From: a virus
Strand: one strand, 5' to 3'
Length of the DNA stretch: 64,000 nt
Virus record (IMG/VR): IMGVR_UViG_3300032331_003707
Span: 36,346 to 100,345 of that record
The notes beneath the pieces are model-generated. The model was not told where the DNA came from. It saw only the letters and a list, made by a program, of their open reading frames with translations, and did no database searches. Numbering within the stretch: position 1 is the stretch's first letter; every line of letters begins with the position of its first letter. Below, one piece after another: positions 42,277 to 59,658 of this stretch. Made by a program: the position numbers and the translations under genes.

Positions 42277-42711
42277 ATGAATTGGTTATATAATAATACA
42301 ATCGTAAATTCGATTGAGGATCTGCCTGAAAATACTTATGGGTTTATATACAAAGTTATAAGCCCTAATGGTAAATTTTACATAGGTAAAAAAAGTCTTT
42401 ATCATAATGTAAAGAAAAAACTTACTAAAAAAGAATTAGCAGAACAAACAGGTCCTGGGAGAAAGGCTACTACTAAAGTCACTCAAAAAGAATCTGATTG
42501 GAAAACATATTATGGTTCTTCTAAAGAATTAAAAGAGGATATAACAAATATAGGTAAAGAAAACTTTACTAAAGAAATATTAAGAATTTGTTATACTAAA
42601 AAATCATTAACATATTGGGAAATATCATATCAATGTAAAGAAGATGTCTTATTAAACAGTACGTACAACGATAATATATTAGGTAAATTTTTTCGTAAAG
42701 ACTTGGAATAA
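42277..42711 (+). CDS. GIY-YIG family endonuclease
   Basis: GFIY...KFYIGKK, Y.GSS, YNDNI. Confidence 0.8.
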   Translation: MNWLYNNTIVNSIEDLPENTYGFIYKVISPNGKFYIGKKSLYHNVKKKLTKKELAEQTGPGRKATTKVTQKESDWKTYYGSSKELKEDITNIGKENFTKEILRICYTKKSLTYWEISYQCKEDVLLNSTYNDNILGKFFRKDLE

Positions 42712-43667: not shown

Positions 43668-44476
43668 TTGAAAAAAATGTAAACGTAAATAAAAAATCTG
43701 TTACTCGTATTCTCCAAGTTGACCCTACATCTAAGAGAGTTAACATAGCTGATAACAGATTCTATAGCAGAAATGAAGATTATTACCCATCAGTAACAAG
43801 TATTTTACAATTTTTACCTAAAGGTAAATTTTTTGAAACCTGGCTTAAAGATGTAGGGCATAATGCTGATGTTATTTCTAGGAAAGCAGCAGATGAAGGA
43901 ACACAAGTCCATGATGCTATTGAGCGTTACTTATTAGGTGAAAAAATAGAATGGTTAAATGAAAATGGATATTCAAATTACTCATTAGACGTTTGGAAAT
44001 TAATTTTAAAATTCCATGATTTCTGGGCTACTGTTAAACCAACACTAATTGAAAGTGAAATCCACTTATTTTCAGATAAGTATAAATTTGCAGGAACTTG
44101 CGATTTAGTTGTTGAAATTAATGGTGAAAAATGGCTATTAGATATTAAAACTTCAAACTCAATCCACACAGCTATGGATTTACAATTAGCTGCTTATACT
44201 CAAGCATGGAATGAGACATTTGAAGAAAAAATAGAAAAGAATGGTATTATTTGGTTAAAATCATCTAAACGCGGAGAAGATAAAAGCGGCAAAAAAATAC
44301 AAGGTAAAGGATGGGAAATTTATGAACCAACACGTACTATTGAAGATAATTTTAAATTGTTTGAACACGTACATGAATTGTTCAAACTAGAAAACCCTAA
44401 CCCAAGACCATCATCAGAACAATTCCCTATGGAAATTCAGATATCCTCTGATATTTATGACAAAAATAAAGAATGA
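43664..44476 (+). CDS. PD-(D/E)xK exonuclease
   Basis: YPSVT.IL, GT.VH..IE, AGT.D, LDIKTS, QLAAY. Confidence 0.85.
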   Translation: MIEKNVNVNKKSVTRILQVDPTSKRVNIADNRFYSRNEDYYPSVTSILQFLPKGKFFETWLKDVGHNADVISRKAADEGTQVHDAIERYLLGEKIEWLNENGYSNYSLDVWKLILKFHDFWATVKPTLIESEIHLFSDKYKFAGTCDLVVEINGEKWLLDIKTSNSIHTAMDLQLAAYTQAWNETFEEKIEKNGIIWLKSSKRGEDKSGKKIQGKGWEIYEPTRTIEDNFKLFEHVHELFKLENPNPRPSSEQFPMEIQISSDIYDKNKE

Positions 44477-45435
44477 TATCACTAGTTAGTATCTTTAAGG
44501 ACTTAATCCTTGAAGGAGGAAACGTATTTGGCACTACAGCCCCTATCAAACGGGAGTATATTCAACCTACTTTAGATAAATTTACTAAAGAATTAAAACG
44601 AATTTTTCCCAAAGTTACTTTTAGCTTTGAATCTCTAGGATCAGTTGGAAAAAAAGCTGAATCGGGAGACATAGATTTAGGATTTAGTGCTAATAACATT
44701 ATTTCAAATGATGGTACTCCATTATTTGATAAATGGGGAATTAGTCCTCAAGAATTTCAAGTTACTTATGATCAAATCCGTAAACGATCTAAAACCGCTA
44801 CTGAAGCTCAAAGTAAACTTAGAGCTATGCTTCAACTTATAGCAACTAAGATAGAAAATGAATCTGAAACCATAGGCACAGACACTAAAGCATCAGGATC
44901 AGGATCAATATACTGTGCTTTTCCTCAATATGATGAATCAGGAAATACAGTTGGTGATAAAAGTGTGCAAATTGATATTAATGTAGGTAATTTAGATTGG
45001 CTTAAATTCAGTTACTATTCTAATACTTATAAAGATAATGTAAAAGGATTACATAGAACCCAATTAATGTTATCTATGTTTCAAGCATTAGGATTATCAT
45101 TTACTCATGCTACTGGGGTTAAATCAAAAGAAACCGGTGAAACTATAGCTACTAACCCTGGAGAAGCTATCCAAGCTCTTAATGATGGGTATGGAATAGA
45201 ATTAACTCCGGATGTAGTAAATGATTATTTTGAATTAATGGGATATATTAAGAAAAATATCCCTAAAGATAAATTTAATCAAATATTAGATATTTACCTA
45301 AAAATCCTTGATTCTACTAGAGCTGATATCCCATATGATCTACAACAATATTGGATTAAAAACCAAGACCGATTAGGTCTTAAAGGAAAATTCCTACCAG
45401 ATGACTCAAAATTAACCCAATATAAGAAAGTATAA
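44473..45435 (+). CDS. Pol-beta-superfamily nucleotidyltransferase-like protein
   Basis: LGSVGKK.ESGDIDL and distal VQIDIN; N-terminal leader ending LILE/GGN. Confidence 0.65.
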   Translation: MISLVSIFKDLILEGGNVFGTTAPIKREYIQPTLDKFTKELKRIFPKVTFSFESLGSVGKKAESGDIDLGFSANNIISNDGTPLFDKWGISPQEFQVTYDQIRKRSKTATEAQSKLRAMLQLIATKIENESETIGTDTKASGSGSIYCAFPQYDESGNTVGDKSVQIDINVGNLDWLKFSYYSNTYKDNVKGLHRTQLMLSMFQALGLSFTHATGVKSKETGETIATNPGEAIQALNDGYGIELTPDVVNDYFELMGYIKKNIPKDKFNQILDIYLKILDSTRADIPYDLQQYWIKNQDRLGLKGKFLPDDSKLTQYKKV

Positions 45436-48400
45436 TGTCAGGTTCAATCGGAGCTAATAGAATCCCTAGAAAAGCTGTTGACCCAACAGTTAAAAAATAT
45501 ATTGAAAATATTTTAAAGAAATATCCTCCTTTTAGAAGTGCTAAAATATCTGGGTCATATAATACTACTGTAAAATCAGATCATGGTGATTTAGATTTAG
45601 TGATCCATGTTGATGCAGGTGAAGATGATAAAAAAACTCTTAAGAAAAAATTTGCTGAATATTTAAATTCATTACCTGATGATGTAATTGTTCCATTTAA
45701 AGCAGGACGTCATCAAGGTAAAAAAACAGCAGGTACTGGGGATATAGTTATTACTCAAATCCCAATAGAAGGTTACCCTGATCTAACGGTTCAAGTAGAT
45801 AATATGATTGTTACTTCTGAACAGGAAAGTGATTATAGAAAAAACTTTTTAGATATACCTGGTGAGAAACAAGCTTTATTAATTGGATTAGCAAAAGCTA
45901 TATTAATAGAAGAAGATCCTGAAACTGTAATTAAACGTTTAGGTATAAAAAATCTTCCACCTCTTGAAGATAATCAAGAATTTGAATTTAACCTATCATC
46001 AAAAGGTTTAACTTTACGTTTAGTAACGTTAGATAACTTTAAAGAAATTGGGCGTAATGATATTTGGAGTTCATATGATTGGAATGACATAAGTAAACTA
46101 TTTACCAATTATAATTTAAATTTACCATTTGATGAGTTATTAAAACAAGTAAAAAATTCTATAAGTAATCCTCGTTCTAGAAACAGAATTAAAGGATTAT
46201 TTAAATCTATGTTAGTAATTGGAGCAGGTGAAAAAGGAACACCTAAAGGAGACAATAAGGAATTAGCCCTACAGAAAGTAGATTCAATTTTAGAACAATT
46301 GGCTGCTTCATATATAACTGAAGACGCTACCTCTCCTATTATAGCTCTTTACCCTGGTAAATTTAAACCACCACATAAAGGACATTTAGATGTAGTTAAT
46401 CAACTTGCTTCTCTCCCTAATGTAGAAAAAGTAATAGTCTTAATTTCACCAAAACCTCATGAAGGTATCACAGCTGAACAAAGTTTAAATATATGGGAAA
46501 AATTATATTTACCATTAATAAACAACCCTGATAAAGTTAAATTTACCATATCTCAAGTTACACCTGTAAAAGATGTTTATGACATCATAACAGACAACCC
46601 AGACACAAATTTCATAGCAGCATATGGAAAAGAAGACGCAGGCCGTTATAGTAAACTAAACTCAGAAAGAGTTAAAACATATGATGCTGGAAATGTTGAA
46701 GGTATAAGTGCTACCGATTTAAGATCAGCTTTAAATTCTCAAGGAGATATAACTCCTTATATTCCTAAAGATGTTTCTCCAATTAAATATCTTGAAACTC
46801 TTGGAGTTTTGTTACATGAAAGTTTAAATGAATATACCAATCAATCTACATTAAATCCTGTAGTGTTTGATGGATTAGAAATTAAACCTAAGGTAAAAGA
46901 TATACTTATAAAAATTGCTAACGAATTTTGGAATTCATTAGAATTAGATGTTGATTATGAAGATATTTTACTTTTAGGTAGTTCTGCTAATTACAATTGG
47001 ACTCCATATTCTGATATAGATTTACATATTTTAGTAGATTTTGATGAGTTTGAAGATCCTAAAATAGCTAAAAAATTCTTTGATTTAGCCAAATCAAGAT
47101 TTAATGATACTCATGATCTAAAAATTAAAAATAATGATATAGAGGTATATGTTCAAAATTCTAAAGAACCTAATGCTAGCATAGGAGTATATTCTTTACT
47201 AAATGATGAATGGTTACAAGAACCTCAATACGGAAAAATTAAAATTCCGGATAATGAAATAGAAAATAAAGCTAAACCCTTTAAATCTAAAATTGATAAA
47301 ATCTTAAGAACAAAACCTACATCTAACAACTATGATTTTTTAATTGATTCTATAAAAGGACTCCAGGACAAACTTAAAAAATTCAGACAAATTGGATTAG
47401 AAACAGGTGGTGAATATTCAATTGAAAATTTAGCTTTTAAAAACCTACGCAATACAGGTTATATTGAGAAACTTCTTAATTACAAGACTGAAGTAATGGA
47501 TAAAGTATTATCTATTAAAGAAATTTTTGATAAACCTGTAGATGCTTACCCATTCACTGAATCAGGAGATGGAACATATATGTTTGAATCTGACAGTGGA
47601 AATCAATATGTTGTCTATATAGATGTTGCTAGTGAAAACAGAATTTCTATAGACTTTGGTATAGCCGATGAAACAGGTGATGTAGATTACCCTGAAACAA
47701 ATGTAGGTGAATTATATAAAGTAATGTCTACTATTATAGCAATTGCTAAAAGTTATGTAAACCAACACCCTGAAATAGAAATTATTTCTTGGTCATCTGT
47801 AGCAAAAAGAGGACAAAAGAAAATTGGAGATACTCAACGTGATAAACTTTATAAATTGGTTGTTAAAAAACAAGCAGGACTATCTGATAAAGATATTAAA
47901 TTTATTAACGGTGAATGGTGGGCTTATTTAAAAGGATATAACCCATTATTTGAAAAAATGTCCTCTACAACTGAATTCCCAGAACCATTTACGTATGAAG
48001 ATCTTATAGATATAGACAAATATGCAGATGATGCTTTAAACCCAATAGATGTTAATCTTGACCCTAAGTCAAATGGGCATTTTTTAGATAGAGCTATTGA
48101 AAGAGGTATAACTAAAGATGAATTAAAGGATTTCTTTGCTAGATTAGGATTAAAAAAAGATAGTTTAAAATATTTCTTTACTAAAGCAAAAGAAAAAGGA
48201 GACAATGATGTTGTAGCAACAGATAAAAAAACAAATATTAGTATTCCTTTTGAAGATACAACTTCAAGTGTTAAAGATCGTATGGCGAATAGAATTAAAT
48301 CTATAGGCGCTAAAACAGTACATAAAAAATCTAATTTTCATACCCCAAATGTTCGACTTACTTTTGCTGAAAATGAAAAAGATACATTTGGATTAAATGC

Positions 48401-48899
48401 TTATGCTAGAGAATTGGCTAAAGAATTAGAAGAAGAATTAAAAGAAGCTAATAATATTAAAACAAGTAAAACTAAACCACTAATGAATATTTTGGTATTA
48501 GATTCTGAAGATAAATCTTCTTTAAAAGAATTTAAAAAACACTTGGCTTCTTTAACTAATTATATGATCGATAACGGATATAATGTTTCTCCTCTTCCTA
48601 AAATAAAATTTATCAATAATGATGTAGAAAATGCTCAAAATGTACTAGGAACAACTGCATATTATAACCCAAATGATAAATCAGTTACTTTGTTTACATT
48701 AAATAGACATCCAAAAGATATATTACGTTCATATGCTCATGAAATGGTTCATCATAAACAAAATTTAGAAAATAGATTAACTAATATCTCTGGACAAAAT
48801 ATAAATGAAGATGACTATTTGAAAGAAATTGAAAGAGAAGCATATGAGGAAGGAAATATGATGTTTAGAAGTTGGGAAAACGGATTAAATAAAAAATGA
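45435..48899 (+). CDS. Multidomain polyprotein: NTase + HIGH-type nucleotidyltransferase + NTase + two unknown domains + zincin
   Basis: ISGS...GDLDLV; YPGKFKPPHKGH...ISATDLR; LLGSSANY....SDIDLH; HFLDR..ER; AHEMVH..Q...EREAY. Confidence 0.7.
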   Translation: MSGSIGANRIPRKAVDPTVKKYIENILKKYPPFRSAKISGSYNTTVKSDHGDLDLVIHVDAGEDDKKTLKKKFAEYLNSLPDDVIVPFKAGRHQGKKTAGTGDIVITQIPIEGYPDLTVQVDNMIVTSEQESDYRKNFLDIPGEKQALLIGLAKAILIEEDPETVIKRLGIKNLPPLEDNQEFEFNLSSKGLTLRLVTLDNFKEIGRNDIWSSYDWNDISKLFTNYNLNLPFDELLKQVKNSISNPRSRNRIKGLFKSMLVIGAGEKGTPKGDNKELALQKVDSILEQLAASYITEDATSPIIALYPGKFKPPHKGHLDVVNQLASLPNVEKVIVLISPKPHEGITAEQSLNIWEKLYLPLINNPDKVKFTISQVTPVKDVYDIITDNPDTNFIAAYGKEDAGRYSKLNSERVKTYDAGNVEGISATDLRSALNSQGDITPYIPKDVSPIKYLETLGVLLHESLNEYTNQSTLNPVVFDGLEIKPKVKDILIKIANEFWNSLELDVDYEDILLLGSSANYNWTPYSDIDLHILVDFDEFEDPKIAKKFFDLAKSRFNDTHDLKIKNNDIEVYVQNSKEPNASIGVYSLLNDEWLQEPQYGKIKIPDNEIENKAKPFKSKIDKILRTKPTSNNYDFLIDSIKGLQDKLKKFRQIGLETGGEYSIENLAFKNLRNTGYIEKLLNYKTEVMDKVLSIKEIFDKPVDAYPFTESGDGTYMFESDSGNQYVVYIDVASENRISIDFGIADETGDVDYPETNVGELYKVMSTIIAIAKSYVNQHPEIEIISWSSVAKRGQKKIGDTQRDKLYKLVVKKQAGLSDKDIKFINGEWWAYLKGYNPLFEKMSSTTEFPEPFTYEDLIDIDKYADDALNPIDVNLDPKSNGHFLDRAIERGITKDELKDFFARLGLKKDSLKYFFTKAKEKGDNDVVATDKKTNISIPFEDTTSSVKDRMANRIKSIGAKTVHKKSNFHTPNVRLTFAENEKDTFGLNAYARELAKELEEELKEANNIKTSKTKPLMNILVLDSEDKSSLKEFKKHLASLTNYMIDNGYNVSPLPKIKFINNDVENAQNVLGTTAYYNPNDKSVTLFTLNRHPKDILRSYAHEMVHHKQNLENRLTNISGQNINEDDYLKEIEREAYEEGNMMFRSWENGLNKK

Positions 48900-49435
48900 T
48901 TAGTTTAACACAAATTTACCAAGAGGGCGTTCTCTCTCCTAATTACACGCTTTATTGTGATATGGATGGAGTACTATGTGACTTCGATTCCCGATTTGAT
49001 TACTTCACAGGACTTTCTCCTGAAGAATATAAAAATAAATTTGGAAATAAAAAGTTTTGGGACCTAATTGATAACCAAGTAGGAGTACCATTTTGGTCTA
49101 ACATGCCCTGGATGCCAGAAGGAGAACTTCTTTGGGATTACATTAAAAAATATAACCCTGTTCTTCTTTCCTCACCCTCAGAAAATAATGAATCTCGTTT
49201 AGGGAAACGTCTTTGGGTAGAAAAACACATTAATAAATATCTCCCACCAGCTTCACCTAAAACCGAATTAATTCTTGCAGCTAGACACAATAAACAAGAT
49301 TATTCAACAAAAACTTCAATACTTATAGACGATCGCCCTGATACTATTTCAGAATGGAACTCCCATAGTGGGATTGGAATTTTGTTTAGATCAACAGGCC
49401 AAACCATTAAAGACTTAAAAAAAATAGGATTATGA
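48896..49435 (+). CDS. HAD-family 5'(3')-deoxyribonucleotidase-like protein
   Basis: YCDMDGVL.DF, LSSP, GK..W, LIDD. Confidence 0.85.
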   Translation: MISLTQIYQEGVLSPNYTLYCDMDGVLCDFDSRFDYFTGLSPEEYKNKFGNKKFWDLIDNQVGVPFWSNMPWMPEGELLWDYIKKYNPVLLSSPSENNESRLGKRLWVEKHINKYLPPASPKTELILAARHNKQDYSTKTSILIDDRPDTISEWNSHSGIGILFRSTGQTIKDLKKIGL

Positions 49436-49839
49436 AACTCCACCAACTCAAAAAAATCATCATCGAAAATCTCACTGCTCACTCCCCAGAACTAATTTCA
49501 TCTCCAGATGAATCCCCAAAATTCCCAGGAGTTAACCAAGTTAAAGACTTCTTCGTAGTAACCCTCCCAGCATCATCATCTCCAGAAAGTACTGTAAGAA
49601 GAACTAATGTATTTGATGATATTCCTATGGATGGAACTCATGGAGTATATTTAAGTGAAGCTGAAGCTACTCGTGAATCTAAACGTTTAACTCAAGAATA
49701 TTCTTCTCAATTAAAAGAGTTAGAAGAAACTATGGCTGAAGTTAGAGCTCAAGAAGCTGAATTAAAAGAAAGAAAAAAAGAAGCTGCTGAAAGAATTAAG
49801 CAGATGAAAGGTGATAAGAAAAAAGAAACCAAAAAATAA
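49432..49839 (+). CDS. Hypothetical protein (putative internal head protein)
   Basis: MKLHQLKKIIIE leader; coiled-coil tail. Confidence 0.55.
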   Translation: MKLHQLKKIIIENLTAHSPELISSPDESPKFPGVNQVKDFFVVTLPASSSPESTVRRTNVFDDIPMDGTHGVYLSEAEATRESKRLTQEYSSQLKELEETMAEVRAQEAELKERKKEAAERIKQMKGDKKKETKK

Positions 49840-49844
49840 AAGTA

Positions 49845-50414
49845 ATGTCTGATAATGTTTTAAAAAAAGAATTCCAACAAAAAGATGTTCAACGTCTTCG
49901 TAATATTTTAACTAATAAGCACGGAGAAAAAACAATTGTAGGGATAGGTTATACCAAACAACAAGAATTCCATGAAGATGGAGATATATGGGAAGAAGAT
50001 GGTCGTACTTGGACTATTAAAGATGGGATTAAACAAAATATTACTAAACTAGATAAAGCTAAAGAATCTATTGTAGCACCTTTATTTTGCCCTTGTTGTA
50101 AAAATTTAATGAAGAATAAGCATGATAATGCTTTCTATCTTCAATATAAACGTTGTTTTAATTGTCAAGTAGATTTTGAAACTCGCCTTAGAATTAATGG
50201 CCAATGGGAAGATTATGAAAAAAATATTGTTAATTCTGATGTAGATGATATGATAAGTGATTTTTCTGTATGGATGGAAGAACATATGAATGCCTCAGAC
50301 GAATCATTCATAACAGAAAGGGGAGATGTTGAAAAATGGGTTGGTTCTTCGAAACAAAAATTATTAGAAAATAAAGAAGAAACAATAAAGTATTTACAAA
50401 GTTTAAAAAAATAA
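49845..50414 (+). CDS. Zn-finger-containing conserved phage protein
   Basis: GD.WEE.G.TW..K.G, CPCC...CFNC. Confidence 0.65.
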   Translation: MSDNVLKKEFQQKDVQRLRNILTNKHGEKTIVGIGYTKQQEFHEDGDIWEEDGRTWTIKDGIKQNITKLDKAKESIVAPLFCPCCKNLMKNKHDNAFYLQYKRCFNCQVDFETRLRINGQWEDYEKNIVNSDVDDMISDFSVWMEEHMNASDESFITERGDVEKWVGSSKQKLLENKEETIKYLQSLKK

Positions 50415-50443
50415 TTAATATTTATATATAAAAACATATAAAC

Positions 50444-50923
50444 ATGAGCAATAATTTTAGTATAAGTGAATGGAGACGTCAACAACTTCACAAAGAAATA
50501 ATAACAGAAGACCTTACGCGTATATCAGAAAATGAAGAAGAAGCTGATATGAAAAAATACCGTAAAGAAGTTTTACAACAACTTTTAACTTGGTATAAAA
50601 AACAAGACAAACCAGACCAGAATATGGTTAAAAAACTTGAAGGAGAAATTGGTAATCTTAACGAAGGTAAAGTTACTGTTAAGTCAATTAAGTTTTCTGA
50701 TTTAAGTGATAAAAATCTTTTACCTACTAATATAGGCATGGGTTCGTCTCGAAAAATTAAAGACGAAGATGACTTTAAAAATTGGAAAGCTGATTTTCTT
50801 AAAAAATATGGTAATATTGAATTAGAAAAAGGCAATGCCGGATGGAAAGCATCATCTAAGCATGAAGCAAATAAACAAGCACAAGCAGACTTTGACAAGA
50901 ATGCTAAAAAAAATAAAAAATAA
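50444..50923 (+). CDS. Hypothetical protein (putative internal head protein)
   Basis: ATATTTAT upstream; IITE, ISE and LNE linkers. Confidence 0.55.
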   Translation: MSNNFSISEWRRQQLHKEIITEDLTRISENEEEADMKKYRKEVLQQLLTWYKKQDKPDQNMVKKLEGEIGNLNEGKVTVKSIKFSDLSDKNLLPTNIGMGSSRKIKDEDDFKNWKADFLKKYGNIELEKGNAGWKASSKHEANKQAQADFDKNAKKNKK

Positions 50924-50930
50924 AATTACC

Positions 50931-51299
50931 ATGAACGAATTTGCAAAACTAATATCATATCTATTTCATTCAAGAACCCAAGCTCACATATTTCATCTTC
51001 AAACTGACTCATTTGCAGCTCACTCTGCTTTAAATGGATATTATGATGCAATTATTGGGTTAACTGATGGATTAGTAGAATCATACCAAGGAAAATATGG
51101 TATTTTAACCAATTACTCTAATTTTAGTATATTAGAATATAAAAGCTGTGAGGAAGTTATTATGTATTTTCAAGGTTTAGATATGACTATTGAAAAACTA
51201 CGCAAATCAATACCCCAAGATTCATATATCCAAAACCAAGTTGATACTATAGTAGAATTAGTTTCTTCTACTATTTACAAACTTAAATTCTTAAAATAA
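50931..51299 (+). CDS. Ferritin/Dps-like four-helix protein (DUF5856-like)
   Basis: QAHIFH.QT.S.A.H.AL..YY......D...E.YQG.YG, YKL.FL; start at ATG 50931. Confidence 0.7.
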   Translation: MNEFAKLISYLFHSRTQAHIFHLQTDSFAAHSALNGYYDAIIGLTDGLVESYQGKYGILTNYSNFSILEYKSCEEVIMYFQGLDMTIEKLRKSIPQDSYIQNQVDTIVELVSSTIYKLKFLK

Positions 51300-51658
51300 T
51301 GGAATCTAATTTTAATCAAGGAAAAAAGGCTATTTCTAACAGACTTAGAAACCTTATTATTATCCCTGAGAAAATACGAGAATTCAGACAAGAATTAAAC
51401 CAAAAGTTTCTTAGCGGAGAAATCACCAAATATGAATTTGATGAAGCCTCAGCTTATTTAGATAAAAAAGAAAACGAACACTACTCTAAAACCCCAGGAC
51501 TTAGAGAAGCATTAATCGAGGTTTATTCTAAAATAGAAGAAGAACTCTGCCCAGCTGGAAAAAGATATATTACTAAACGTAAAGCTGCTGGTGAAAAATC
51601 ATCAGCCTATCTTTCAGGACGTGCTGTAAAAGTGTGTAAGGGTCAAATGAAGGGATAA
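51299..51658 (+). CDS. Conserved phage protein
   Basis: LCP.GK...SAY.SG..VKVCKG after an IEE linker. Confidence 0.6.
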   Translation: MESNFNQGKKAISNRLRNLIIIPEKIREFRQELNQKFLSGEITKYEFDEASAYLDKKENEHYSKTPGLREALIEVYSKIEEELCPAGKRYITKRKAAGEKSSAYLSGRAVKVCKGQMKG

Positions 51659-51933
51659 TGACTAAAAAAGAATTACATGAAATAATTTATGAGTCATTAC
51701 GTGATTGGTTTAAAAAAGAAGACTGGGTTCGTATTGATACCCAAGGTAATATAACTGGCCCATGTGGTACTATGAAAAAAGGTCAAGCAACTACTCGTTG
51801 TTTACCTAGAGCTAAAGCAAATAGTTTAACTAAAGCAGAACGTGCTTCTACATCTAGAAAAAAAGTAACAGGTAGTAAAAAAGGTAAACAATTTGTTTCT
51901 AACACATCCAAAGCCAAAGTTAAAAAAAAATGA
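51658..51933 (+). CDS. Small basic conserved phage protein
   Basis: L.DWF.KE.WV.I, CG...CLP..KA. Confidence 0.65.
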   Translation: MTKKELHEIIYESLRDWFKKEDWVRIDTQGNITGPCGTMKKGQATTRCLPRAKANSLTKAERASTSRKKVTGSKKGKQFVSNTSKAKVKKK

Positions 51934-52079
51934 TTAAACTAACCGACATATTACAAGAAATGATAGCTAATACTAAAATTATTTGTGATAAATGTGGCTG
52001 GAAATGGAAAATAAAAGATGGAGGAGATGATTTATTTATGTGTCATAAATGTGGCCATGATAATGCTTCATCTTATTAA
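51930..52079 (+). CDS. 49-aa zinc-ribbon protein
   Basis: MIKLTDILQE leader; CDKCGW...CHKCGH; read manually. Confidence 0.65.
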   Translation: MIKLTDILQEMIANTKIICDKCGWKWKIKDGGDDLFMCHKCGHDNASSY

Positions 52080-52109
52080 AAAATAACATATTTATAATAA
52101 AATTATACA

Positions 52110-53243
52110 ATGAAACAACAATTGAGCGAACAATTTTCTCGTATGAAAAAATTAGCGGGTATTAATGAAAATTTTATGACCCCAAAACCATTACCTCCTG
52201 CTTCTGGGGAACATAATCCTTCTACATTATGGGATTCATTAGATCTCCCAACTAGAACTAATGCTCTTGAACCAATTGTTGGACCTGAAGATGCTGGATA
52301 CCTAGCTAGATATAGTTGGTATAATATCCCAGGTAGTGTAGCTAATCAAATTGAATTTGATGATATAGTATCTCATAGAGAAAATACTCCTGTTTCTTTT
52401 TTAGATAAAGAATTAAATGAAATTTTAGCTTTAATAAATGAAGCTGAGAAAAAATCAAAAGAAGAAGAGGAAGAAGAAACACCAGCTGAAGAAGAAGAAA
52501 CACCTGCTGAAGGTGAAGATGAAGCACCAGCTGAAGAAGAAGCTCCTGCTGAAGGGGAAGATGTTGAAGGTGAAGAAGGTCTTGATCCTGAGGTTAAAAA
52601 AATTCAAAGTGCATTAGAATTAGCATATGCTAAAGCTAAAGAATTAGGAGATAAAAAATTAAATGCTCAAATTGGTAATACTATTACTTATTTTACTAAA
52701 ACTCAAGTATTAAAAGCTGAAGAAGGTGAAGGTGAGGAAGGTGGGGAAGTTACTGAAGATTTATTTTCTTCATTAGTTAGAGAAGTAGCTATTGCTCCTG
52801 CTGGGAAACCAAAAGAAGACCCAAATAAAAAACAAGCCCAAGTAAAGGGAAGTATTAATGTTAATGCTTTTAAAAAATTAAATGTCCCTGGTGCTAATAT
52901 TGCTGTCTTAACCTCATCAATAAACAAAATCAAACAAGGTCTTTCAGCAGATAAACTTAGCACTAGTGAAAAAGCAGAATTAGCTAAGACATTTGCTGAA
53001 ATGATTCGCACTAAAAACGATTCTCTTCTTAATCAAATCTTCAGCATCCTTAAAAATGTTGAACAAGCCCCAGCAAAAGCTCCTGTAACTGAAAAAAAAC
53101 TTTCTAAAGCTGAAAACAGTGAAAAAGAAAAAATTGTAAAGGGAATGAAAAAAAATAAATCTGAGTTTGTAAAAGATTATGGGAAAGATGCTCAAAAAGT
53201 AATGTATGCTACTGCTACTAAATTAGCCCAAAAGAAAAAATAA
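52110..53243 (+). CDS. Putative internal head/scaffold-like protein with acidic repeats
   Basis: RMKKLAGINE leader, EEETPAE repeats, C-terminal YG....VMYATATKLA. Confidence 0.6.
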   Translation: MKQQLSEQFSRMKKLAGINENFMTPKPLPPASGEHNPSTLWDSLDLPTRTNALEPIVGPEDAGYLARYSWYNIPGSVANQIEFDDIVSHRENTPVSFLDKELNEILALINEAEKKSKEEEEEETPAEEEETPAEGEDEAPAEEEAPAEGEDVEGEEGLDPEVKKIQSALELAYAKAKELGDKKLNAQIGNTITYFTKTQVLKAEEGEGEEGGEVTEDLFSSLVREVAIAPAGKPKEDPNKKQAQVKGSINVNAFKKLNVPGANIAVLTSSINKIKQGLSADKLSTSEKAELAKTFAEMIRTKNDSLLNQIFSILKNVEQAPAKAPVTEKKLSKAENSEKEKIVKGMKKNKSEFVKDYGKDAQKVMYATATKLAQKKK

Positions 53244-53755
53244 TGACTCGTGCTGAATTAATAGATAAAATTAGAGGTATTGTAAAAAAAGTTTACAAAC
53301 CTGTAATTGTAAAAGTTGACTTAGACACAGTCAATACTGGGGTATCCTTAGATATAGAAAGATTCCCATTATTAGCTAAATTCCCATCATTACGAGAAAT
53401 AATCGAAAAACTTCTTACTTCTCAATATGATATCTTTATAGGAGATGTATTATGGGTTGCACCTCGTCCTACTACATTTAAAATTATATTTAATAATGGA
53501 CAAGTATTTTATCTTATAACTACTAATAAAGGATGGATCGCTAAAGTAGAAGGTAAAAAATATTTTATAACCGAACGAAATGAACTAGAACGAGCCTCAG
53601 AAGCTCTTGCACGAATCCTTTCATATGGAAACCCAGCTGATATTGCAGCCGCATCAACTGAAGCACCTGCTGAAGAAGTTCCAGCTGAAGAAGCACCTGC
53701 TGAAGAAGCTCCAACTGAAGAAACACCTGAAGAAACCCCTGAAGAAACAACATAA
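53243..53755 (+). CDS. Hypothetical protein with acidic PAEE tail
   Basis: WVAPRPTTF.I motif; PAEE repeats. Confidence 0.6.
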   Translation: MTRAELIDKIRGIVKKVYKPVIVKVDLDTVNTGVSLDIERFPLLAKFPSLREIIEKLLTSQYDIFIGDVLWVAPRPTTFKIIFNNGQVFYLITTNKGWIAKVEGKKYFITERNELERASEALARILSYGNPADIAAASTEAPAEEVPAEEAPAEEAPTEETPEETPEETT

Positions 53756-53776
53756 ATTTTTAACATAAACCAAAAA

Positions 53777-54400
53777 ATGAAAAATAAACTTACCGAAGAA
53801 AAAATTGAACAATTACTTCTAGAATTAATTGAAGAAGGATTATTTGATAGATTAAAATCTAAAGCAACTGGAGCTGTAGCTGGTTTAAAACAAACTGGAA
53901 AGAACTTAGGTGCGTTTTTAAAAGGTGATGCTTCTGCTATCGGAGATCCAAAACTTCAAAAAGCAACAGCTCAACTTAAATCAAAACTTGATACTATCGC
54001 TAAAGATTTATCTTCAGCCCAAGAAGATATGGCTACTCTATTCCCAGCAGCTACTATAAAATCTTTACCTGGAGATCTTCCAACTATAATAAGTAATTAC
54101 CAAAAATCTTTAACTGTTATGGGTAATGCTACTAAAAAGATTATATCTCAAATTTCAAACCCTCCTAAATCAAAAGGTGATGACAAATCATCTGAAGAAA
54201 AAGGTAAACAACCTCAACAAAAAGCCGCTCAACCCCAACAAAAAGGTAAACAACCACAACAAAAAGCTGCTCAACAAAAACAACCCAACAGAAACCCAGC
54301 AACTGGAAGATTTACTAAAAAAGGAGAACCAGCTCGTGACCCTAAAACTGGAAGGTTTGTTAAAAAGACTTTAGAAGAACTTCTAAAACAATATAAATAA
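53777..54400 (+). CDS. Hypothetical protein with Q/K repeats
   Basis: LIEE/GLFD leader; KGKQPQQKAAQ x2; R.P.TGRF x2. Confidence 0.6.
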   Translation: MKNKLTEEKIEQLLLELIEEGLFDRLKSKATGAVAGLKQTGKNLGAFLKGDASAIGDPKLQKATAQLKSKLDTIAKDLSSAQEDMATLFPAATIKSLPGDLPTIISNYQKSLTVMGNATKKIISQISNPPKSKGDDKSSEEKGKQPQQKAAQPQQKGKQPQQKAAQQKQPNRNPATGRFTKKGEPARDPKTGRFVKKTLEELLKQYK

Positions 54401-54407
54401 TTTAGTT

Positions 54408-55259
54408 GTGGATATTTTTACAAAATTCCTAAATAGCGTTTCTCATAAGTTTCCTAAAGGTTACCCTGATATGAATGATGCTGATGATGTTAAACTTTTA
54501 GAATCTTTACTTAAACCATACATCTCAGAAACAGAACAACCTGAAGGGGAATCTTCTGAGGAATCAACAATATCTACCCAACAACAAGAACTTCAAAAAA
54601 TTATTGATGTTATAGATAAAGTTGAATCAGATGATAAGATAACAAAAACCAAATTATTTGACTTACTTGCAGATTATACTTACAAATATTATAACTCTGA
54701 ATTAGGGGATATTAAAAAAGTATTCCCCAACCCTGTGTCTACACTTGGAAGTTGGAGAGACTATGTTGAAAGAAAAGAAAGCAATGTAGGTAAAGAAATA
54801 GAACAAGCTGTAGAATTATACTCTCAGGAACAAGGCGTAGAAGCATCATCTATAAGAGGCAAAGGAACAGATGTTAATATAGATGGGAAAGAAGTTGAAA
54901 TTAAATCATCATCAGGTAATACCATAACTACGATGCTTCAAACTTCATTCTATAAAAATAATCCTAATAAATTTTATTTATTTGCTAGTAATTCATCTAA
55001 ATCTGATTTAACTATTCGTATAGTATCAAGTGAACTATTATATAGATTAAGTTTAGGAGATGATATAGCAGATGAGCTAGCAACTAATAAACAATCACAA
55101 AAATTACTAGACCAAATAAATACAGGTTTAGAAACATTAGATTTTCCACATTTAATACAAACATCATTAACAACAGGTGAAAGCTTAGATGTTAAAAAAT
55201 CTTTTAAAGTAGGAAAAAATATTAAAGTTAGATTTGTAATCTATATTGAACCTCAATAA
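54408..55259 (+). CDS. PD-(D/E)xK nuclease-like protein
   Basis: E...E, GTDVNIDGKEVEIKS; GTG start; KFPKGYPD leader. Confidence 0.55.
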   Translation: MDIFTKFLNSVSHKFPKGYPDMNDADDVKLLESLLKPYISETEQPEGESSEESTISTQQQELQKIIDVIDKVESDDKITKTKLFDLLADYTYKYYNSELGDIKKVFPNPVSTLGSWRDYVERKESNVGKEIEQAVELYSQEQGVEASSIRGKGTDVNIDGKEVEIKSSSGNTITTMLQTSFYKNNPNKFYLFASNSSKSDLTIRIVSSELLYRLSLGDDIADELATNKQSQKLLDQINTGLETLDFPHLIQTSLTTGESLDVKKSFKVGKNIKVRFVIYIEPQ

Positions 55260-55282
55260 TATTTATAATAAATAATACTACT

Positions 55283-55900
55283 ATGGGATGTGCTTGTGGA
55301 TGTAATACTTGTGATAAATCACCAATGTTGATAGAATCAAAACAATATGATTCTCCTATATCTGAAGGTTTACGATATCATATGGATTTTAAAGTTCCTC
55401 TTAATGACACAGTATATAGACCTGGGTCAAAAGCCCATATTAATCTAATATTTGAAGCTCGTAATCTGTGGAAGGAAGGAATTATTAAAGTTCAAGATTT
55501 AGACAGAAAATTATTTGAAACTACAGATTTAGGTAAAATCGGGTTTTATGAAGGTAAGACAGTACCATTAGATTTTCCACTAATGGAAATTGAAACATTA
55601 ACTGAAGCAGAATTAGAAGAAGAAAAGAAAAATCCACCAATAGGAAAACCTAAACGTGGTGGTTCTAAAAAATTCTATGTTTATGTTAGAGACCCTAAAA
55701 CCAAAAATATTAAAAAAGTATCATTTGGACAAGCAGGGATGTCTGCAAAAATTAATGACCCAAAAGCGCGTAGAGCATTTGCTGCTAGACATAAATGTGC
55801 TCAAAAAACAGATAGAACCAAACCTAGCTATTGGTCATGCCGTCTACCAAGATATGCTAAACTACTAGGATTAAAATCAACATTCTCAGGATACTGGTAA
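55283..55900 (+). CDS. Conserved phage protein (basic C-terminal domain)
   Basis: KKFYVYV...KKVSFG...AFAARH.C...YWSCR. Confidence 0.7.
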   Translation: MGCACGCNTCDKSPMLIESKQYDSPISEGLRYHMDFKVPLNDTVYRPGSKAHINLIFEARNLWKEGIIKVQDLDRKLFETTDLGKIGFYEGKTVPLDFPLMEIETLTEAELEEEKKNPPIGKPKRGGSKKFYVYVRDPKTKNIKKVSFGQAGMSAKINDPKARRAFAARHKCAQKTDRTKPSYWSCRLPRYAKLLGLKSTFSGYW

Positions 55901-55901
55901 T

Positions 55902-56717
55902 ATGAATACAAATTATATCAAACAAATTATTAAAGAAGAATTAGAAAAAATTCTTAATGAAGCTTTCTTTAACATCAGACCTCAAAAAGGAGGATCAGGT
56001 GGAAGAAGGTACATCCCTAAATTTTTTGTCTTCCCAGGAAATGTCAGAGAAAATCTTAAAGATTACTTTAAATTTTATGGAAATACAATGTATGTTGATC
56101 CTCAAGTATTAATAGCACTTGGTTACCTTACTCGAGGAAGACAATCATATGATAAAACACAGGATTTTCCATCTTTAACTAAACTTTTACAAGATAAACT
56201 ACCACAACCTGTTAGATTATCTATTAAAAAAGGAGCTGAAGGGCAAAGAATGCAAGATATTGGTGGTAAAAAAATGGTTCCTTTAAATTTAGATATTACT
56301 AAAGATGAAGCAGGGAATTATTTAATTAAAAACCCATATACTAATATTAGTGAATATAAATCACACCTATTAGAAGCATTATTACTAGAAAAAAAAAACG
56401 TATCTAATGTATATCAACTAGAATCATTACTAGTTACTGATACTAGTGTTCGTAACCAAGCTGAAATCTTATCTGATATTCGCTCCCTTTCTGGAGTTAC
56501 TATTGTATCCACAGATCCACTTAATCCTGATCAAAATGTTCAAAATAAAGATAGGGTTGAATCTAAACTTTATTTAAAAATCGATCCACATCCATTTTTA
56601 GGTAAGGGAGGATTTGGAGAAAAAGAACTTGAAACTATTTATTCAAGCATTAAAAAAATTAAAGGTGTTACTGTATTTAGAGTAATTGGTAAACCTGATA
56701 GAAAAACATTACGATGA
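55902..56717 (+). CDS. Two-domain hypothetical protein
   Basis: IKQIIKEELEKILNE leader; IRSL.GVTIV in the second domain. Confidence 0.6.
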   Translation: MNTNYIKQIIKEELEKILNEAFFNIRPQKGGSGGRRYIPKFFVFPGNVRENLKDYFKFYGNTMYVDPQVLIALGYLTRGRQSYDKTQDFPSLTKLLQDKLPQPVRLSIKKGAEGQRMQDIGGKKMVPLNLDITKDEAGNYLIKNPYTNISEYKSHLLEALLLEKKNVSNVYQLESLLVTDTSVRNQAEILSDIRSLSGVTIVSTDPLNPDQNVQNKDRVESKLYLKIDPHPFLGKGGFGEKELETIYSSIKKIKGVTVFRVIGKPDRKTLR

Positions 56718-56971
56718 TTAAGTTAATAGATTTACTTAAAGAAGAAAAAGGAGAAAAATATCCTCCTTATATGTACTCTCCTGTAGGATTTGGTTGTCAC
56801 GTTTGTGAATATTATTATAAAGAAGATGGATTACATCATTGTAGTAATAAAGAATATCAAAAATATATGGGTACTAATGAATTAGTAGATAATGAAGGAA
56901 ACCAAATTAAGGATCCATCAAAATGGTGTTCTAATTGGTTCCACCCTAATATTCAAGATGAGACCGTATAA
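56714..56971 (+). CDS. Cys/His-rich small protein
   Basis: MIKLIDLLKE leader; CHVC...HHC...WCSNW. Confidence 0.6.
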   Translation: MIKLIDLLKEEKGEKYPPYMYSPVGFGCHVCEYYYKEDGLHHCSNKEYQKYMGTNELVDNEGNQIKDPSKWCSNWFHPNIQDETV

Positions 56972-57221
56972 CGATATAGAAATTACAGATAAATATATTA
57001 TTCGTGAATTTAACGAAAATATAGATCCTATTGAATTACTGTGGCATCGTGATAGAGAAGATCGCGTTGTAGAAATTATAGAAGGAATAGATTGGAAAGT
57101 TCAACTCGAAGATCAACTTCCAATAACTCTTACAAATTCTCCAATATTTATACCAAAATACGAATGGCATCGTGTTATTAAAGGAACAGGAAACTTAAAG
57201 TTAAAAATACATAAAAAATGA
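56958..57221 (+). CDS. Cupin-like protein
   Basis: WHRD.EDR...IP...WHRVIKG. Confidence 0.65.
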   Translation: MRPYNDIEITDKYIIREFNENIDPIELLWHRDREDRVVEIIEGIDWKVQLEDQLPITLTNSPIFIPKYEWHRVIKGTGNLKLKIHKK

Positions 57222-57958: not shown

Positions 57959-58031
57959 TTTAATTAAAAGAAATAACTTATAGACAGATTCATAGCCTGT
58001 CGCTCTAACAAGAGACAAAATTATGGTAGCT

Positions 58032-58060
58032 GTGGCACCCCTAAAAAGGTGCCACTTTTT
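58032..58060 (+). terminator. Intrinsic terminator
   Basis: GTGGCACC-loop-GGTGCCAC-TTTTT. Confidence 0.8.
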
Positions 58061-58061
58061 A

Positions 58062-58093
58062 TTTGGATTTTAGCAAAAAATATATTATCTTTA
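58062..58093 (+). promoter_or_regulatory. Host-like TTTGG-N19-TATCTTTA promoter
   Basis: Six nt upstream of ATG 58100. Confidence 0.7.
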
Positions 58094-58099
58094 TAGCAT

Positions 58100-59404: not shown

Positions 59405-59408
59405 ATAT

Positions 59409-59645: not shown

Positions 59646-59658
59646 TTATCTTTATAAT

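What the first reader, a model, noticed from the sequence alone, without database searches (positions are those of the whole stretch)
44473..49435. Putative virion-delivered nucleotidyltransferase arsenal built as a cleavable polyprotein
Seen: three consecutive, overlapping genes behind a late-type ATATTTAT motif. They encode three pol-beta-type NTase domains (GS...DxD in the 320-aa ORF, and at about 45.55 and 46.97 kb in the 1154-aa ORF), a HIGH-class nucleotidyltransferase (YPGKFKPPHKGH, about 46.35 kb), two unassigned domains (one with HFLDR..ER), a HEMVH zincin, and a HAD nucleotidase. Domain boundaries in the 1154-aa protein fall on hydrophobic-x-Glu linkers (ILE/YITE, LHE/LNE, IKE, LFE, FAE/LKE). 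The flanking ORFs begin with similar leaders (MISLVSIFKDLILE, MISLTQIYQE). Known: T4 gp21 prohead protease cleaves internal head proteins after (L/I/V)xE. Inference: a head-packaged polyprotein is cut into separate enzymes and injected to act on nucleotides or RNA immediately. Possible roles are tRNA-end repair, NAD-type cofactor synthesis, making or destroying immune second messengers, or protein NMPylation. I do not recognise this combination as a described system.
Basis: partly seen in the sequence, partly recalled or inferred. Interest (0 to 1): 0.85.

Follow-up and report, generated by a model that had tools for sequence, protein, structure and literature searches.

The report
Cleavage-coded phage enzyme polyprotein cluster
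Three adjoining genes of an uncultured T4-like aquatic phage encode a string of nucleotide- and nucleic-acid-handling enzymes, and their gene and domain junctions carry the cutting signal of the phage's head protease, so the enzymes are probably loaded into the capsid, cut apart and injected with the DNA.

Summary
Tools assign: two family-X (Pol beta)-like nucleotidyltransferases (the 320-aa protein and domain 1), an NMNAT/PPAT-like HIGH nucleotidyltransferase, a minimal NTP_transf_2 nucleotidyltransferase, a GNAT-like DUF6934 domain, a candidate RegB-like RNase, a Wss1-like HExxH zincin and an NT5C-type HAD nucleotidase.

The new evidence is comparative. In the 320-aa family, the residue before the conserved domain start is either the start Met or a Glu, in 40 of 40 extended forms, with a hydrophobic or aromatic residue at -3 in 39. 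Six independent fusions of the 320-aa protein to domain 1 join the same way. This is the T4 gp21-type cleavage rule.

Relatives encode that protease, and their capsid and core proteins carry the same leaders. In cyanophage S-CREM2, a clear homologue of domain 3 and the adjacent HIGH-type cytidylyltransferase were detected in purified virions.

Packaging and cleavage are therefore well supported but not shown. Substrates remain unknown.

The principle is known from T4 capsid-targeting sequences and from polyvalent proteins. This family and the junction rule are new.

The parts
44451..44458 (+). ATATTTAT upstream element, variant copy inside the 3' end of the exonuclease gene, 22 nt before the start codon
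   Evidence: 13 of 19 + strand copies on the contig lie within 30 nt upstream of an ORF start, several of them before structural genes; a promoter role is not shown
44473..44514 (+). 14-residue amphipathic leader of the 320-aa protein, ending hydrophobic-x-Glu; candidate capsid-targeting propeptide
   Evidence: pLDDT below 50 and detached in the model; conserved in close homologues; absent from about 35 more distant representatives, which start with Met exactly at residue 15, and from immuto gp089
44515..45435 (+). Family-X-polymerase-like nucleotidyltransferase (palm, thumb and a C-terminal helical part), residues 15-320
   Evidence: AF2 pLDDT 93; Foldseek PDB top hits Pol beta/lambda/mu, E 1e-5; VIA Z 9.8 Pol beta and Z 9.0 ASFV Pol X; invariant G56 S57 D66 D68 Q166 D168
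45435..46322 (+). Domain 1 of the 1154-aa protein (res 1-296): paralogue of the 320-aa protein, with no leader
   Evidence: hhalign 95.5% probability, E 1.5e-8, 256 columns; Pfam DNA_pol_B_palm 24.6 bits against cut-off 25
46323..46820 (+). Domain 2 (res 297-462): HIGH-superfamily nucleotidyltransferase, NMNAT/PPAT-like, preceded by a linker helix ending h-x-E (res 285-296)
   Evidence: Pfam CTP_transf_like 25.9 bits; profile hits to archaeal NMNAT 1f9a E 1.4e-4 and to PPATs; H-x-G-H at 314-317 and I-S-x-T-x-x-R at 423-429; 53 of 53 distinct linkers have h-x-E
46821..47522 (+). Domain 3 (res 463-696): minimal NTP_transf_2 nucleotidyltransferase with a helical C-terminal part (phrog_36119)
   Evidence: stand-alone homologues in T4-like cyanophages, Lak phages and Maribacter phage Molly; S-CREM2 ORF156 (39% identity, E 4e-40) is a virion protein
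47523..47954 (+). Domain 4 (res 697-840): DUF6934, GNAT-like fold
   Evidence: Pfam 30.3 bits scanned alone; Foldseek SpeG/AAC(6') probability 0.99; VIA Z 7.9-6.6 to GNATs over model 1-134
47955..48371 (+). Domain 5 (res 841-979): candidate RegB-like endoribonuclease
   Evidence: Pfam REGB_T4 E 0.027; BLASTP against T4 RegB 10/27 identities over the RegB stretch with H48 and R52, E 0.001 for a single pair; H882 in 27 of 27 homologues that have the domain; Atlas lead DUF4258 at 0.76. Weak
48372..48506 (+). Disordered linker (res 980-1024) with further h-x-E sites; the place where homologues carry extra modules
   Evidence: pLDDT below 50; insertion point in P0001, P0003 and others
48507..48899 (+). 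Domain 7 (res 1025-1154): minimal HExxH zincin, the most conserved part of the family
   Evidence: VIA Z 9.3 to Wss1 (114 of 128 residues aligned), Z about 8 to aminopeptidase N catalytic domains; H1102 E1103 H1106 E1133 E1135 invariant in 35 sequences; 60-69% identity across homologues
48896..49435 (+). HAD (NT5C-type) 5'-deoxyribonucleotidase with an N-terminal extension of about 20 residues that starts like the 320-aa leader
   Evidence: phrog_2643 E 1.1e-24; Pfam NT5C 18.9 bits, below cut-off 24.8; D-x-D-G-V at res 22-26 and D-D at 145-146; leaders in homologues

Best explanation
The block encodes cargo for the phage head.

Each enzyme module is preceded by a short amphipathic helix ending in hydrophobic-x-Glu. 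This element sits either at the N-terminus of a separate gene (the 320-aa Pol-X-like enzyme, the HAD nucleotidase) or as a linker inside the 1154-aa polyvalent protein.

Proposed sequence of events:
1. During head assembly the modules enter the prohead core.
2. The T4 gp21-type (S77) prohead protease cuts after the Glu.
3. This removes leaders and separates at least some modules, so that fused and unfused gene arrangements give the same mature proteins.
4. The enzymes are injected with the DNA and act before any phage gene is expressed.

The enzyme set is two family-X-like nucleotidyltransferases, an NMNAT/PPAT-like adenylyltransferase, a minimal nucleotidyltransferase, a GNAT-like domain, a RegB-like RNase candidate, a Wss1-like zincin and a deoxyribonucleotidase.

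Status of each step:
- Shown here: the gene and domain anatomy, the fold assignments and the junction rule.
- Inferred: cleavage, the identity of the protease, packaging and injection.
- Unknown: the substrates. My best guess is action on DNA or RNA ends and on nucleotide pools, for early host takeover or counter-defence.
For: 1. Junction rule in the 320-aa family. Representatives are clustered at 50% identity. The residue before the conserved G-G-N-V-F start is Met at position 1 in about 35 proteins. It is Glu in all 40 proteins with a leader or an upstream domain, and the residue at -3 is hydrophobic or aromatic in 39 of 40. Four more read h-x-E-Met.
2. Second junction. Six independent fusions of the 320-aa protein to domain 1 all read h-x-E before the S-G-S start, which follows Met in unfused genes.
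3. Natural split. In L012/L018 the polyprotein gene is split. The D1/D2 linker helix with its h-x-E becomes the N-terminal leader of the D2 gene, and a leader-bearing 119-aa gene lies between the two parts.
4. D1/D2 linker. 53 of 53 distinct linkers have h-x-E 8-24 residues before the HIGH motif, against a null rate of 0.26.
5. Structure models. The leader (res 1-14) is unstructured relative to the domain (pLDDT below 50). Disordered linkers begin right after E840 and E979.
6. Protease. Peptidase_S77 is present in immuto (120 bits) and in 3 of 5 related fragments (93-109 bits). Proteases of this family cut after Glu (PMC5694885).
7. Head proteins of relatives. The major capsid protein and the two genes between portal and protease start with the same kind of leader. 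h-x-E sites are enriched in the scaffold (28 against 20; 35 against 23) and in a post-portal protein (17-18 against 6-8).
8. T4 comparison. T4 ipII and ipIII share a 10-residue N-terminus ending I-A-E, the known capsid-targeting sequence.
9. Published proteomics. S-CREM2 ORF154 (cytidylyltransferase), ORF155 and ORF156 (the D3 homologue) were found in CsCl-purified virions (PMC10665884; homology).
10. Gene position. The block lies upstream of, and on the same strand as, a run of leader-bearing genes, with the large terminase at 60894-62474. In relatives the portal, protease and capsid genes follow the terminase.
Against: - The 1154-aa protein itself starts without a leader.
- No S77 protease was found on the window's own contig. 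The contig is only 62% complete and ends at the terminase, just before where relatives carry the protease.
- The cultured relative immuto has a leaderless 320-aa homologue, so packaging is not intrinsic to the enzyme.
- h-x-E sites are not enriched overall in the polyprotein (29 against 27.7), and many lie inside folded domains.
- The genes directly follow primase and exonuclease, which suits a replication or repair role.
- The S-CREM2 detections rest on 3-6 peptides. The relation of its cytidylyltransferase to D2 is weak (HMM E 5.5e-5 in a tiny database).
- The universally conserved zincin has no role in this scheme.
- A simple leader criterion is only 2.5-fold enriched at N-termini on the contig and picks up obvious false positives.
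Confidence: 0.58

Rival explanations
1. Self-processing polyvalent protein. The conserved C-terminal zincin, not the prohead protease, cuts the linkers and the neighbours' leaders, before or after delivery, as Iyer et al. proposed for zincin-bearing polyvalent proteins.
For: - The zincin is the best conserved module (60-69% identity) with an intact HExxH...E site and a Wss1-like fold.
- The polyvalent-protein paper makes the zincin the hub domain and predicts autoprocessing (PMC5512222).
- Every locus with the 320-aa gene has the zincin protein next to it.
Against: - Specificity for Glu at P1 with a hydrophobic residue at P3 is the documented rule of gp21-type proteases. To my knowledge it is not typical of zincins.
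- The same leaders stand on capsid and core proteins of relatives.
- They also stand on a cyanophage virion cytidylyltransferase with no HExxH motif in the neighbouring proteins that I read.
- Immuto keeps the zincin while its 320-aa homologue has no leader.
Confidence: 0.14
2. Ordinary cytoplasmic enzymes of replication, repair or nucleotide metabolism that are neither packaged nor cut. On this view the leaders and linkers are structural helices, and the Pol-X-like enzymes work with the adjacent primase and exonuclease, or serve DNA hypermodification or nucleotide-pool control.
For: - Synteny primase-exonuclease-320 aa-polyprotein-nucleotidase is conserved in 38 loci and in immuto.
- In cyanophages the related cluster also lies near the primase.
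- Immuto replaces all dG by a 7-deazaguanine derivative (PMC10516641), so unusual nucleotide enzymology is expected in this lineage.
- Many homologues are leaderless.
Against: - It does not explain why Glu is obligatory exactly, and only, where something precedes the domain start (40/40 and 6/6).
- It does not explain why the leader is detached in the model.
- It does not explain why the D3 homologue and the adjacent cytidylyltransferase are in virions.
- No TGT or QueC gene lies on the 100-kb fragment (the fragment is incomplete).
Confidence: 0.2
3. NAD+ salvage counter-defence. On this view the 1154-aa protein is chiefly an NMN adenylyltransferase, as annotated in immuto, which rebuilds NAD+ depleted by host defences.
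For: - Best profile hits of D2 are archaeal NMNATs (1f9a E 1.4e-4; 1m8g E 1e-3).
- Immuto gp088 is annotated as NMNAT.
- Phage NAD+ reconstitution pathways are known (Osterman et al. 2024, cited in PMC12801897).
Against: - PPATs match equally well, so the substrate cannot be read from sequence.
- D2 is one of seven modules.
- No Nampt partner was looked for or seen.
- The 'NAD synthetase' label of the nearby 144-aa gene is a mislabelled SegE-type GIY-YIG endonuclease (Pfam 94 bits).
Confidence: 0.08

Closest known systems
T4 internal proteins IPI-III and Alt with the capsid-targeting sequence, matured by gp21
   Same: A short N-terminal propeptide (10-20 residues) ends in hydrophobic-x-Glu. 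Relatives carry an S77 protease. The cargo is diverse and unrelated, encoded outside the core head genes, and serves early infection.
   Different: The cargo here is enzymes of other kinds, and several modules are concatenated so that the leader also serves as an internal linker. Leaders vary in sequence. Nothing has been shown experimentally.
Polyvalent proteins of phages and conjugative elements (Iyer, Burroughs, Anand, de Souza, Aravind 2017; PMC5512222)
   Same: Many unrelated catalytic domains lie in one chain, with a zincin-like metallopeptidase as a recurrent module, domains shuffled among homologues, and predicted packaging and processing.
   Different: That survey found Pol-beta-type nucleotidyltransferases only in conjugative-element proteins. 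It does not describe a Pol-X-like plus HIGH-nucleotidyltransferase core or junctions coded for a Glu-specific prohead protease.
Virion-associated cytidylyltransferase and ORF155/156 of cyanophage S-CREM2 (PMC10665884)
   Same: ORF156 is a clear homologue of domain 3 (39% identity). ORF154 is a HIGH nucleotidyltransferase with a P-P-H-K-G-H motif and a 10-residue leader ending L-T-E. Both were found in purified virions, and the cluster lies near the primase.
   Different: They are separate genes, with no Pol-X-like modules and no zincin. The relation of ORF154 to D2 is weak.
Family X DNA polymerases, especially the minimal ASFV Pol X
   Same: Palm and thumb fold with the three catalytic Asp (Z 9.8 Pol beta, Z 9.0 ASFV Pol X with 160 of 176 residues aligned).
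   Different: About 12-14% identity. No 8-kDa or helix-hairpin-helix domains. A 45-residue insert and an extra C-terminal helical part. Template-directed polymerase activity is untested.
T4 RegB endoribonuclease
   Same: Domain 5 shares the H-x-L-D-R-A-I-x-R stretch with the RegB region holding H48 and R52. The His is invariant in homologues.
   Different: The match covers about 27 residues and is below Pfam's threshold. The fold was not matched, because other domains filled the hit lists.
Wss1/SprT-type minimal zincins
   Same: Fold match Z 9.3 and HExxH plus a downstream Glu.
   Different: About 10% identity. No evidence of DNA-dependent protease activity.

Membership tests
T4-type capsid-targeted prohead-protease substrates | N-terminal propeptide of 10-20 residues ending hydrophobic-x-Glu | tested here: met
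   Met for the 320-aa protein (res 1-14) and, less sharply, the nucleotidase (res 1-10). The 1154-aa protein has none at its N-terminus.
T4-type capsid-targeted prohead-protease substrates | gp21-family (Peptidase_S77) protease encoded by the phage | tested here: inconclusive
   None on the own contig, which is 62% complete and ends at the terminase. Present in immuto and in 3 of 5 related fragments.
T4-type capsid-targeted prohead-protease substrates | Protein present in virions and cut at the site | not testable with these tools
   Only by homology: S-CREM2 ORF154 and ORF156 in the virion proteome.
Polyvalent proteins (Iyer et al. 2017) | Two or more unrelated catalytic domains in one polypeptide of a phage or plasmid | tested here: met
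   Seven modules by Pfam, profile and fold searches.
Polyvalent proteins (Iyer et al. 2017) | Zincin-like metallopeptidase module | tested here: met
   HExxH...E invariant; Wss1 Z 9.3.
Polyvalent proteins (Iyer et al. 2017) | Delivery with the DNA | not testable with these tools
   Inferred only.
Family X DNA polymerase | Palm with G-S...D-x-D and a third Asp | tested here: met
   G56 S57 D66 D68 D168 invariant. D1 has D52, D54 and D122.
Family X DNA polymerase | Palm plus thumb fold | tested here: met
   The nine best VIA hits are all family X, Z 9.8-7.5, covering model 19-253. Foldseek probability 1.0.
Family X DNA polymerase | 8-kDa lyase and helix-hairpin-helix DNA-binding domains | tested here: not met
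   The match starts at Pol beta residue 142, and nothing precedes the palm except the leader. ASFV Pol X also lacks these domains.
Family X DNA polymerase | Template-directed DNA synthesis | not testable with these tools
   No assay was possible.
HIGH-superfamily nucleotidyltransferase (NMNAT/PPAT group) | H-x-G-H and I-S-x-T-x-x-R motifs with a Pfam CTP_transf_like match | tested here: met
   H314-H317 and res 423-429; 25.9 bits against cut-off 21; NMNAT and PPAT hits.
NT5C / HAD 5'(3')-deoxyribonucleotidase | D-x-D-x-V nucleophile motif, D-D motif, family profile match | tested here: inconclusive
   Motifs are present. phrog_2643 E 1e-24, but Pfam NT5C scores 18.9 bits, below its cut-off of 24.8.
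GNAT acetyltransferase | GNAT fold with an acetyl-CoA binding loop | tested here: inconclusive
   Fold match Z 7.9, Foldseek probability 0.99. The N-terminal helices are missing and the cofactor loop was not examined.
RegB/RelE-like endoribonuclease | Catalytic His/Arg helix and RelE-like fold | tested here: inconclusive
   Motif match only. Fold not tested on its own.

The most novel reading that the evidence does not exclude
An abundant, almost uncultured lineage of T4-like aquatic phages uses a portable 'amphipathic helix plus hydrophobic-x-Glu' tag as a packaging-and-cleavage code. Any enzyme can be loaded into the capsid either as its own gene or strung into a polyprotein, because the head protease restores the same mature proteins. 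Gene fusion, fission and insertion at the tags are therefore nearly neutral, which drives rapid shuffling of an injected enzyme set that includes Pol-X-like polymerases, never before described as virion cargo.
Probability: 0.45. Interest if true: 0.8.

Novelty: new variant of a known kind. Interest (0 to 1): 0.66.

Why it matters
If true, the T4 capsid-targeting principle, so far known for small internal proteins and Alt of T-even phages, extends to a large and environmentally abundant phage group. The 320-aa family alone gave 1810 homologues at E<=0.001, yet among 50,697 isolate phage records it occurs only in the immuto phages.

It would also link that principle with the polyvalent-protein theme and give a sequence rule for predicting injected proteins from genomes alone. 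It would add family-X-like nucleotidyltransferases, an NMNAT/PPAT-like enzyme and a RegB-like RNase to the list of first-minute infection tools.

A cultured relative exists (Flavobacterium phage immuto), so the prediction can be tested directly by virion proteomics.

Tried and rejected
- Counting h-x-E sites in the polyprotein: 29 against 27.7 expected, so it is not informative.
- A simple leader criterion on all 142 ORFs of the contig: 15 hits against 6 expected, with obvious false positives such as the thymidylate-synthase-like ORF. It is too unspecific to list cargo.
- An h-x-E test upstream of the zincin with a loose anchor: 46 of 64 against a null of 0.41, which is weak.
- TATAAATA (the T4 late promoter) is not enriched: 18 against 21 expected.
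- A single-protein scan of viral contigs for domain 3 gave only 3 loci.
- Sequence search of the PDB with the 320-aa protein gave nothing. The fold search was needed.
- Domain 5 got no fold match, because GNAT and zincin hits filled the lists.
- A 7-deazaguanine link: no TGT or QueC on the fragment.
The leaderless starts of distant homologues could therefore be checked at the DNA level only for immuto, where a stop lies 5 codons upstream.

Full report
**Observation.** The three ORFs exist as described: 44473-45435 (320 aa), 45435-48899 (1154 aa) and 48896-49435 (179 aa). All are on the + strand and overlap by 1 and 4 nt, and the first overlaps the upstream exonuclease gene by 4 nt. The ATATTTAT copy is at 44451-44458, 22 nt before the first start codon. 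It lies inside the exonuclease gene and ends TG, where most copies end TA.

**Where this is.**
- The window is the last 64 kb of a 100,345-bp IMG/VR virus record, rated 62% complete.
- The nearest isolate is Flavobacterium phage immuto (160 kb). It keeps the order primase, PD-(D/E)XK exonuclease, 302-aa protein, 907-aa 'NMNAT', NT5C nucleotidase.
- The same order holds in 38 IMG/VR loci, with the large protein varying from 608 to 1279 aa.
- Among 50,697 isolate phage records only the immuto phages hold the 320-aa family, while metagenomes gave 1810 homologues at E<=0.001.
- Upstream of the block lie tail or baseplate-like genes, a SegE-type homing endonuclease, primase and exonuclease.
- Downstream lie about 11 kb of small genes and then the large terminase at 60894-62474.
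- In relatives the terminase is followed by portal, three unassigned genes, an S77 head protease, a scaffold-like gene and the major capsid protein. The window's contig therefore stops just short of its own head-protease region.

**What the proteins are.**
- *320-aa protein.* It models with pLDDT 93, except for residues 1-14. The nine best structural matches are all family X polymerases: Pol beta Z 9.8, ASFV Pol X Z 9.0, then Pol lambda, mu, TdT and bacterial PolX. They cover palm and thumb. Terminal uridylyltransferases and CD-NTases follow at Z 7 and below and cover the palm only. G56, S57, D66, D68, Q166 and D168 are invariant.
- *Domain 1 (D1).* It is a paralogue of the 320-aa protein over its whole length (hhalign 95.5%, E 1.5e-8, 256 columns).
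- *Domain 2 (D2).* It is a HIGH nucleotidyltransferase with both signature motifs. It is equally near archaeal NMNATs and PPATs.
- *Domain 3 (D3).* It is a minimal NTP_transf_2 enzyme of phrog_36119.
- *Domain 4 (D4).* It is DUF6934 with a GNAT-like fold.
- *Domain 5 (D5).* It shares a nine-residue His/Arg stretch with T4 RegB, and the His is invariant in 27 of 27 homologues. The match is weak and the fold was not tested alone.
- *Domain 7 (D7).* It is a minimal zincin (Wss1 Z 9.3) with HExxH and the downstream Glu invariant.
- *179-aa protein.* It is an NT5C-type HAD nucleotidase with intact motifs.

**Family architecture.** Homologues of the large protein share the first 460 residues (D1 plus D2, about 50% identity) and the zincin (60-69% identity). 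Between and after these they carry changing modules. These include D3, DUF6934, D5, a zinc ribbon, a HAD-like piece and others without any Pfam match. Lengths run from 640 to 1433 aa. DUF6934 stands before the zincin here and after it in P0033. The core order is therefore conserved and the rest is shuffled, as in the polyvalent proteins of Iyer et al. (PMC5512222).

**The junction rule.** This is the main new evidence.
- In a search of 1.84 billion representatives, most distant relatives of the 320-aa protein align from query residue 15 to their own residue 2.
- Reading the residues before the conserved G-G-N-V-F start gave three classes:
  - About 35 proteins start with Met directly.
  - All 40 proteins with anything upstream, whether a 9-20-residue leader or whole domains of 130-520 residues, have Glu at -1, and 39 of them have a hydrophobic or aromatic residue at -3.
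  - Four more read h-x-E-Met.
- Immuto's leaderless start is real, since a stop lies five codons upstream.
- Six fusions of the 320-aa protein to D1, from separate 50% clusters, all read h-x-E before the S-G-S start, which follows Met in the unfused genes.
- In loci L012 and L018 the large gene is split after D1. A leader-bearing 119-aa gene, a homologue of the window's ORF 49432-49839, lies in the gap. The D2 gene then begins with the former linker helix ending L-F-E.
- The D1/D2 linker has h-x-E 8-24 residues before the HIGH motif in 53 of 53 distinct sequences, against a null of 0.26.
- In the models, the leader is detached and the two disordered linkers start right after E840 and E979.
- A Glu that is obligatory only when something precedes a domain, and that is replaced by the start Met when nothing does, is what a cleavage site after Glu predicts. 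The mature N-termini (Gly or Ser after removal of Met) come out the same either way.

**Which protease.**
- Proteases of the T4 gp21 family cut after Glu. T4's own targets carry 10-20-residue N-terminal propeptides that double as capsid-targeting sequences (PMC5694885; PMC3012670 and PMC10229621). That T4's rule is Leu/Ile-x-Glu is from my own knowledge (Black, Showe and Steven 1994).
- T4 ipII and ipIII share such a 10-residue start ending I-A-E (read from the T4 record).
- Peptidase_S77 is present in immuto (120 bits) and in three of five related fragments.
- In those relatives, the capsid protein and the two genes between portal and protease begin with leaders of the same kind.
- The capsid protein has four h-x-E sites in its first 60 residues and none for the next 250.
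- h-x-E is enriched in the scaffold (28 against 20; 35 against 23) and in the post-portal protein (17-18 against 6-8).

**Outside experimental support.** In the T4-like cyanophage S-CREM2, mass spectrometry of CsCl-purified virions found ORF154 (cytidylyltransferase), ORF155 and ORF156 (PMC10665884). ORF156 is a clear homologue of D3 (39% identity, E 4e-40). ORF154 is a HIGH enzyme with a 10-residue leader ending L-T-E. Its neighbours as far as I read them carry no HExxH motif, so a zincin is not needed there.

**Mechanism proposed.** Leader-tagged modules enter the prohead core. The S77 protease trims leaders and cuts exposed linkers. The enzymes stay in the head and are injected. The anatomy and the rule are shown. 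Cleavage, protease identity, packaging and injection are inferred. What the enzymes act on is unknown. Candidates are DNA ends or gaps (Pol-X-like pair), adenylylation of a cofactor or acceptor (D2), host mRNA (D5), host proteins (zincin, GNAT-like) and dNMP pools (nucleotidase).

**Weak points.**
- The large protein has no N-terminal leader of its own.
- Immuto's 320-aa homologue has none either.
- The own contig lacks the protease region.
- The internal sites are supported less directly than the two N-terminal junctions.
- The role of the conserved zincin is open.
- The genes sit next to replication genes.

**Rivals.**
- Self-processing by the zincin: 0.14.
- Unpackaged replication, repair or nucleotide-metabolism enzymes: 0.20. 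Immuto's complete dG replacement (PMC10516641) makes unusual nucleotide chemistry plausible in this lineage.
- A chiefly NAD-salvage role: 0.08.

**Novelty.** Capsid-targeting sequences, Glu-specific prohead proteases, polyvalent proteins and a virion-borne cytidylyltransferase are all published. New here are this family, its Pol-X-like plus HIGH core, and the fusion/fission evidence that one tag serves as both leader and linker. I rate it a new variant of a known kind.

I confirmed individual leaders there, but the criterion I could compute is only 2.5-fold enriched.

Noticed in passing
window 49432-60830, also 29858-30205: A run of small + strand genes start with amphipathic leaders ending hydrophobic-x-Glu (for example 49432, 55902, 60216, 29858, 51658). 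Two others carry a K-L-A-G-I/L motif near the N-terminus (52110, 57218). They lie between the finding and the terminase. My simple criterion gives 15 N-terminal hits on the contig against 6 expected.
   Followed up: partly
L012:3743-5955 and L018:3836-6637: In two related contigs the polyprotein gene is split after domain 1, and a homologue of the window's 135-aa ORF (49432-49839) is inserted between the halves. The second half starts with the former linker helix.
   Followed up: yes
window 24605, 27141, 29844, 39515, 50418, 52088, 55259, 60189, 62474 (+ strand): ATATTTATA lies 9-27 nt upstream of many start codons in the structural half of the contig. 13 of 19 copies are within 30 nt of a start, against about 0.8 expected. 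It is a likely promoter-type element distinct from T4's TATAAATA, which is not enriched.
   Followed up: partly
window 42277-42711: This 144-aa ORF is a SegE-type GIY-YIG homing endonuclease (Pfam 94 bits). Its PHROG, and the immuto gene with that PHROG's label in the corresponding upstream region, are called 'NAD synthetase', which looks like a propagated mis-annotation.
   Followed up: partly
window 60894-62474: This ORF is the large terminase subunit (phrog_2, E 1e-50). The contig ends just before the portal, protease and capsid genes seen in relatives (L051, L052).
   Followed up: yes
L001:6001-8724 (immuto gp088): The immuto homologue has a second HExxH motif (H-E-I-E-H near residue 805) in an extra C-terminal domain after the conserved zincin.
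   Followed up: no
homologues P0001, P0005, P0009, P0011, P0017, P0111 (linker before the zincin): Recurrent small modules sit in the variable region: a zinc ribbon (C-D-N-C-G-W...C-H-K-C-G-H) and a short P-Y-G-S-G-Y motif directly followed by an h-x-E site. Their function is unknown.
   Followed up: no
L051:14240-19135 (- strand, relative G002): Two very large proteins (699 and 899 aa) are made of P-E-I-P-D-type proline/acidic repeats and lie downstream of the head and tail genes.
   Followed up: no
L044:903-2582 (S-H34 gp010) and L047:2953-3474 (S-CREM2 ORF155): Between the cyanophage cytidylyltransferase and the D3 homologue lies a highly charged, Lys/Glu- and Ser/Thr-rich low-complexity protein. 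The S-CREM2 one is in the virion proteome, so it may be an internal head protein.
   Followed up: no
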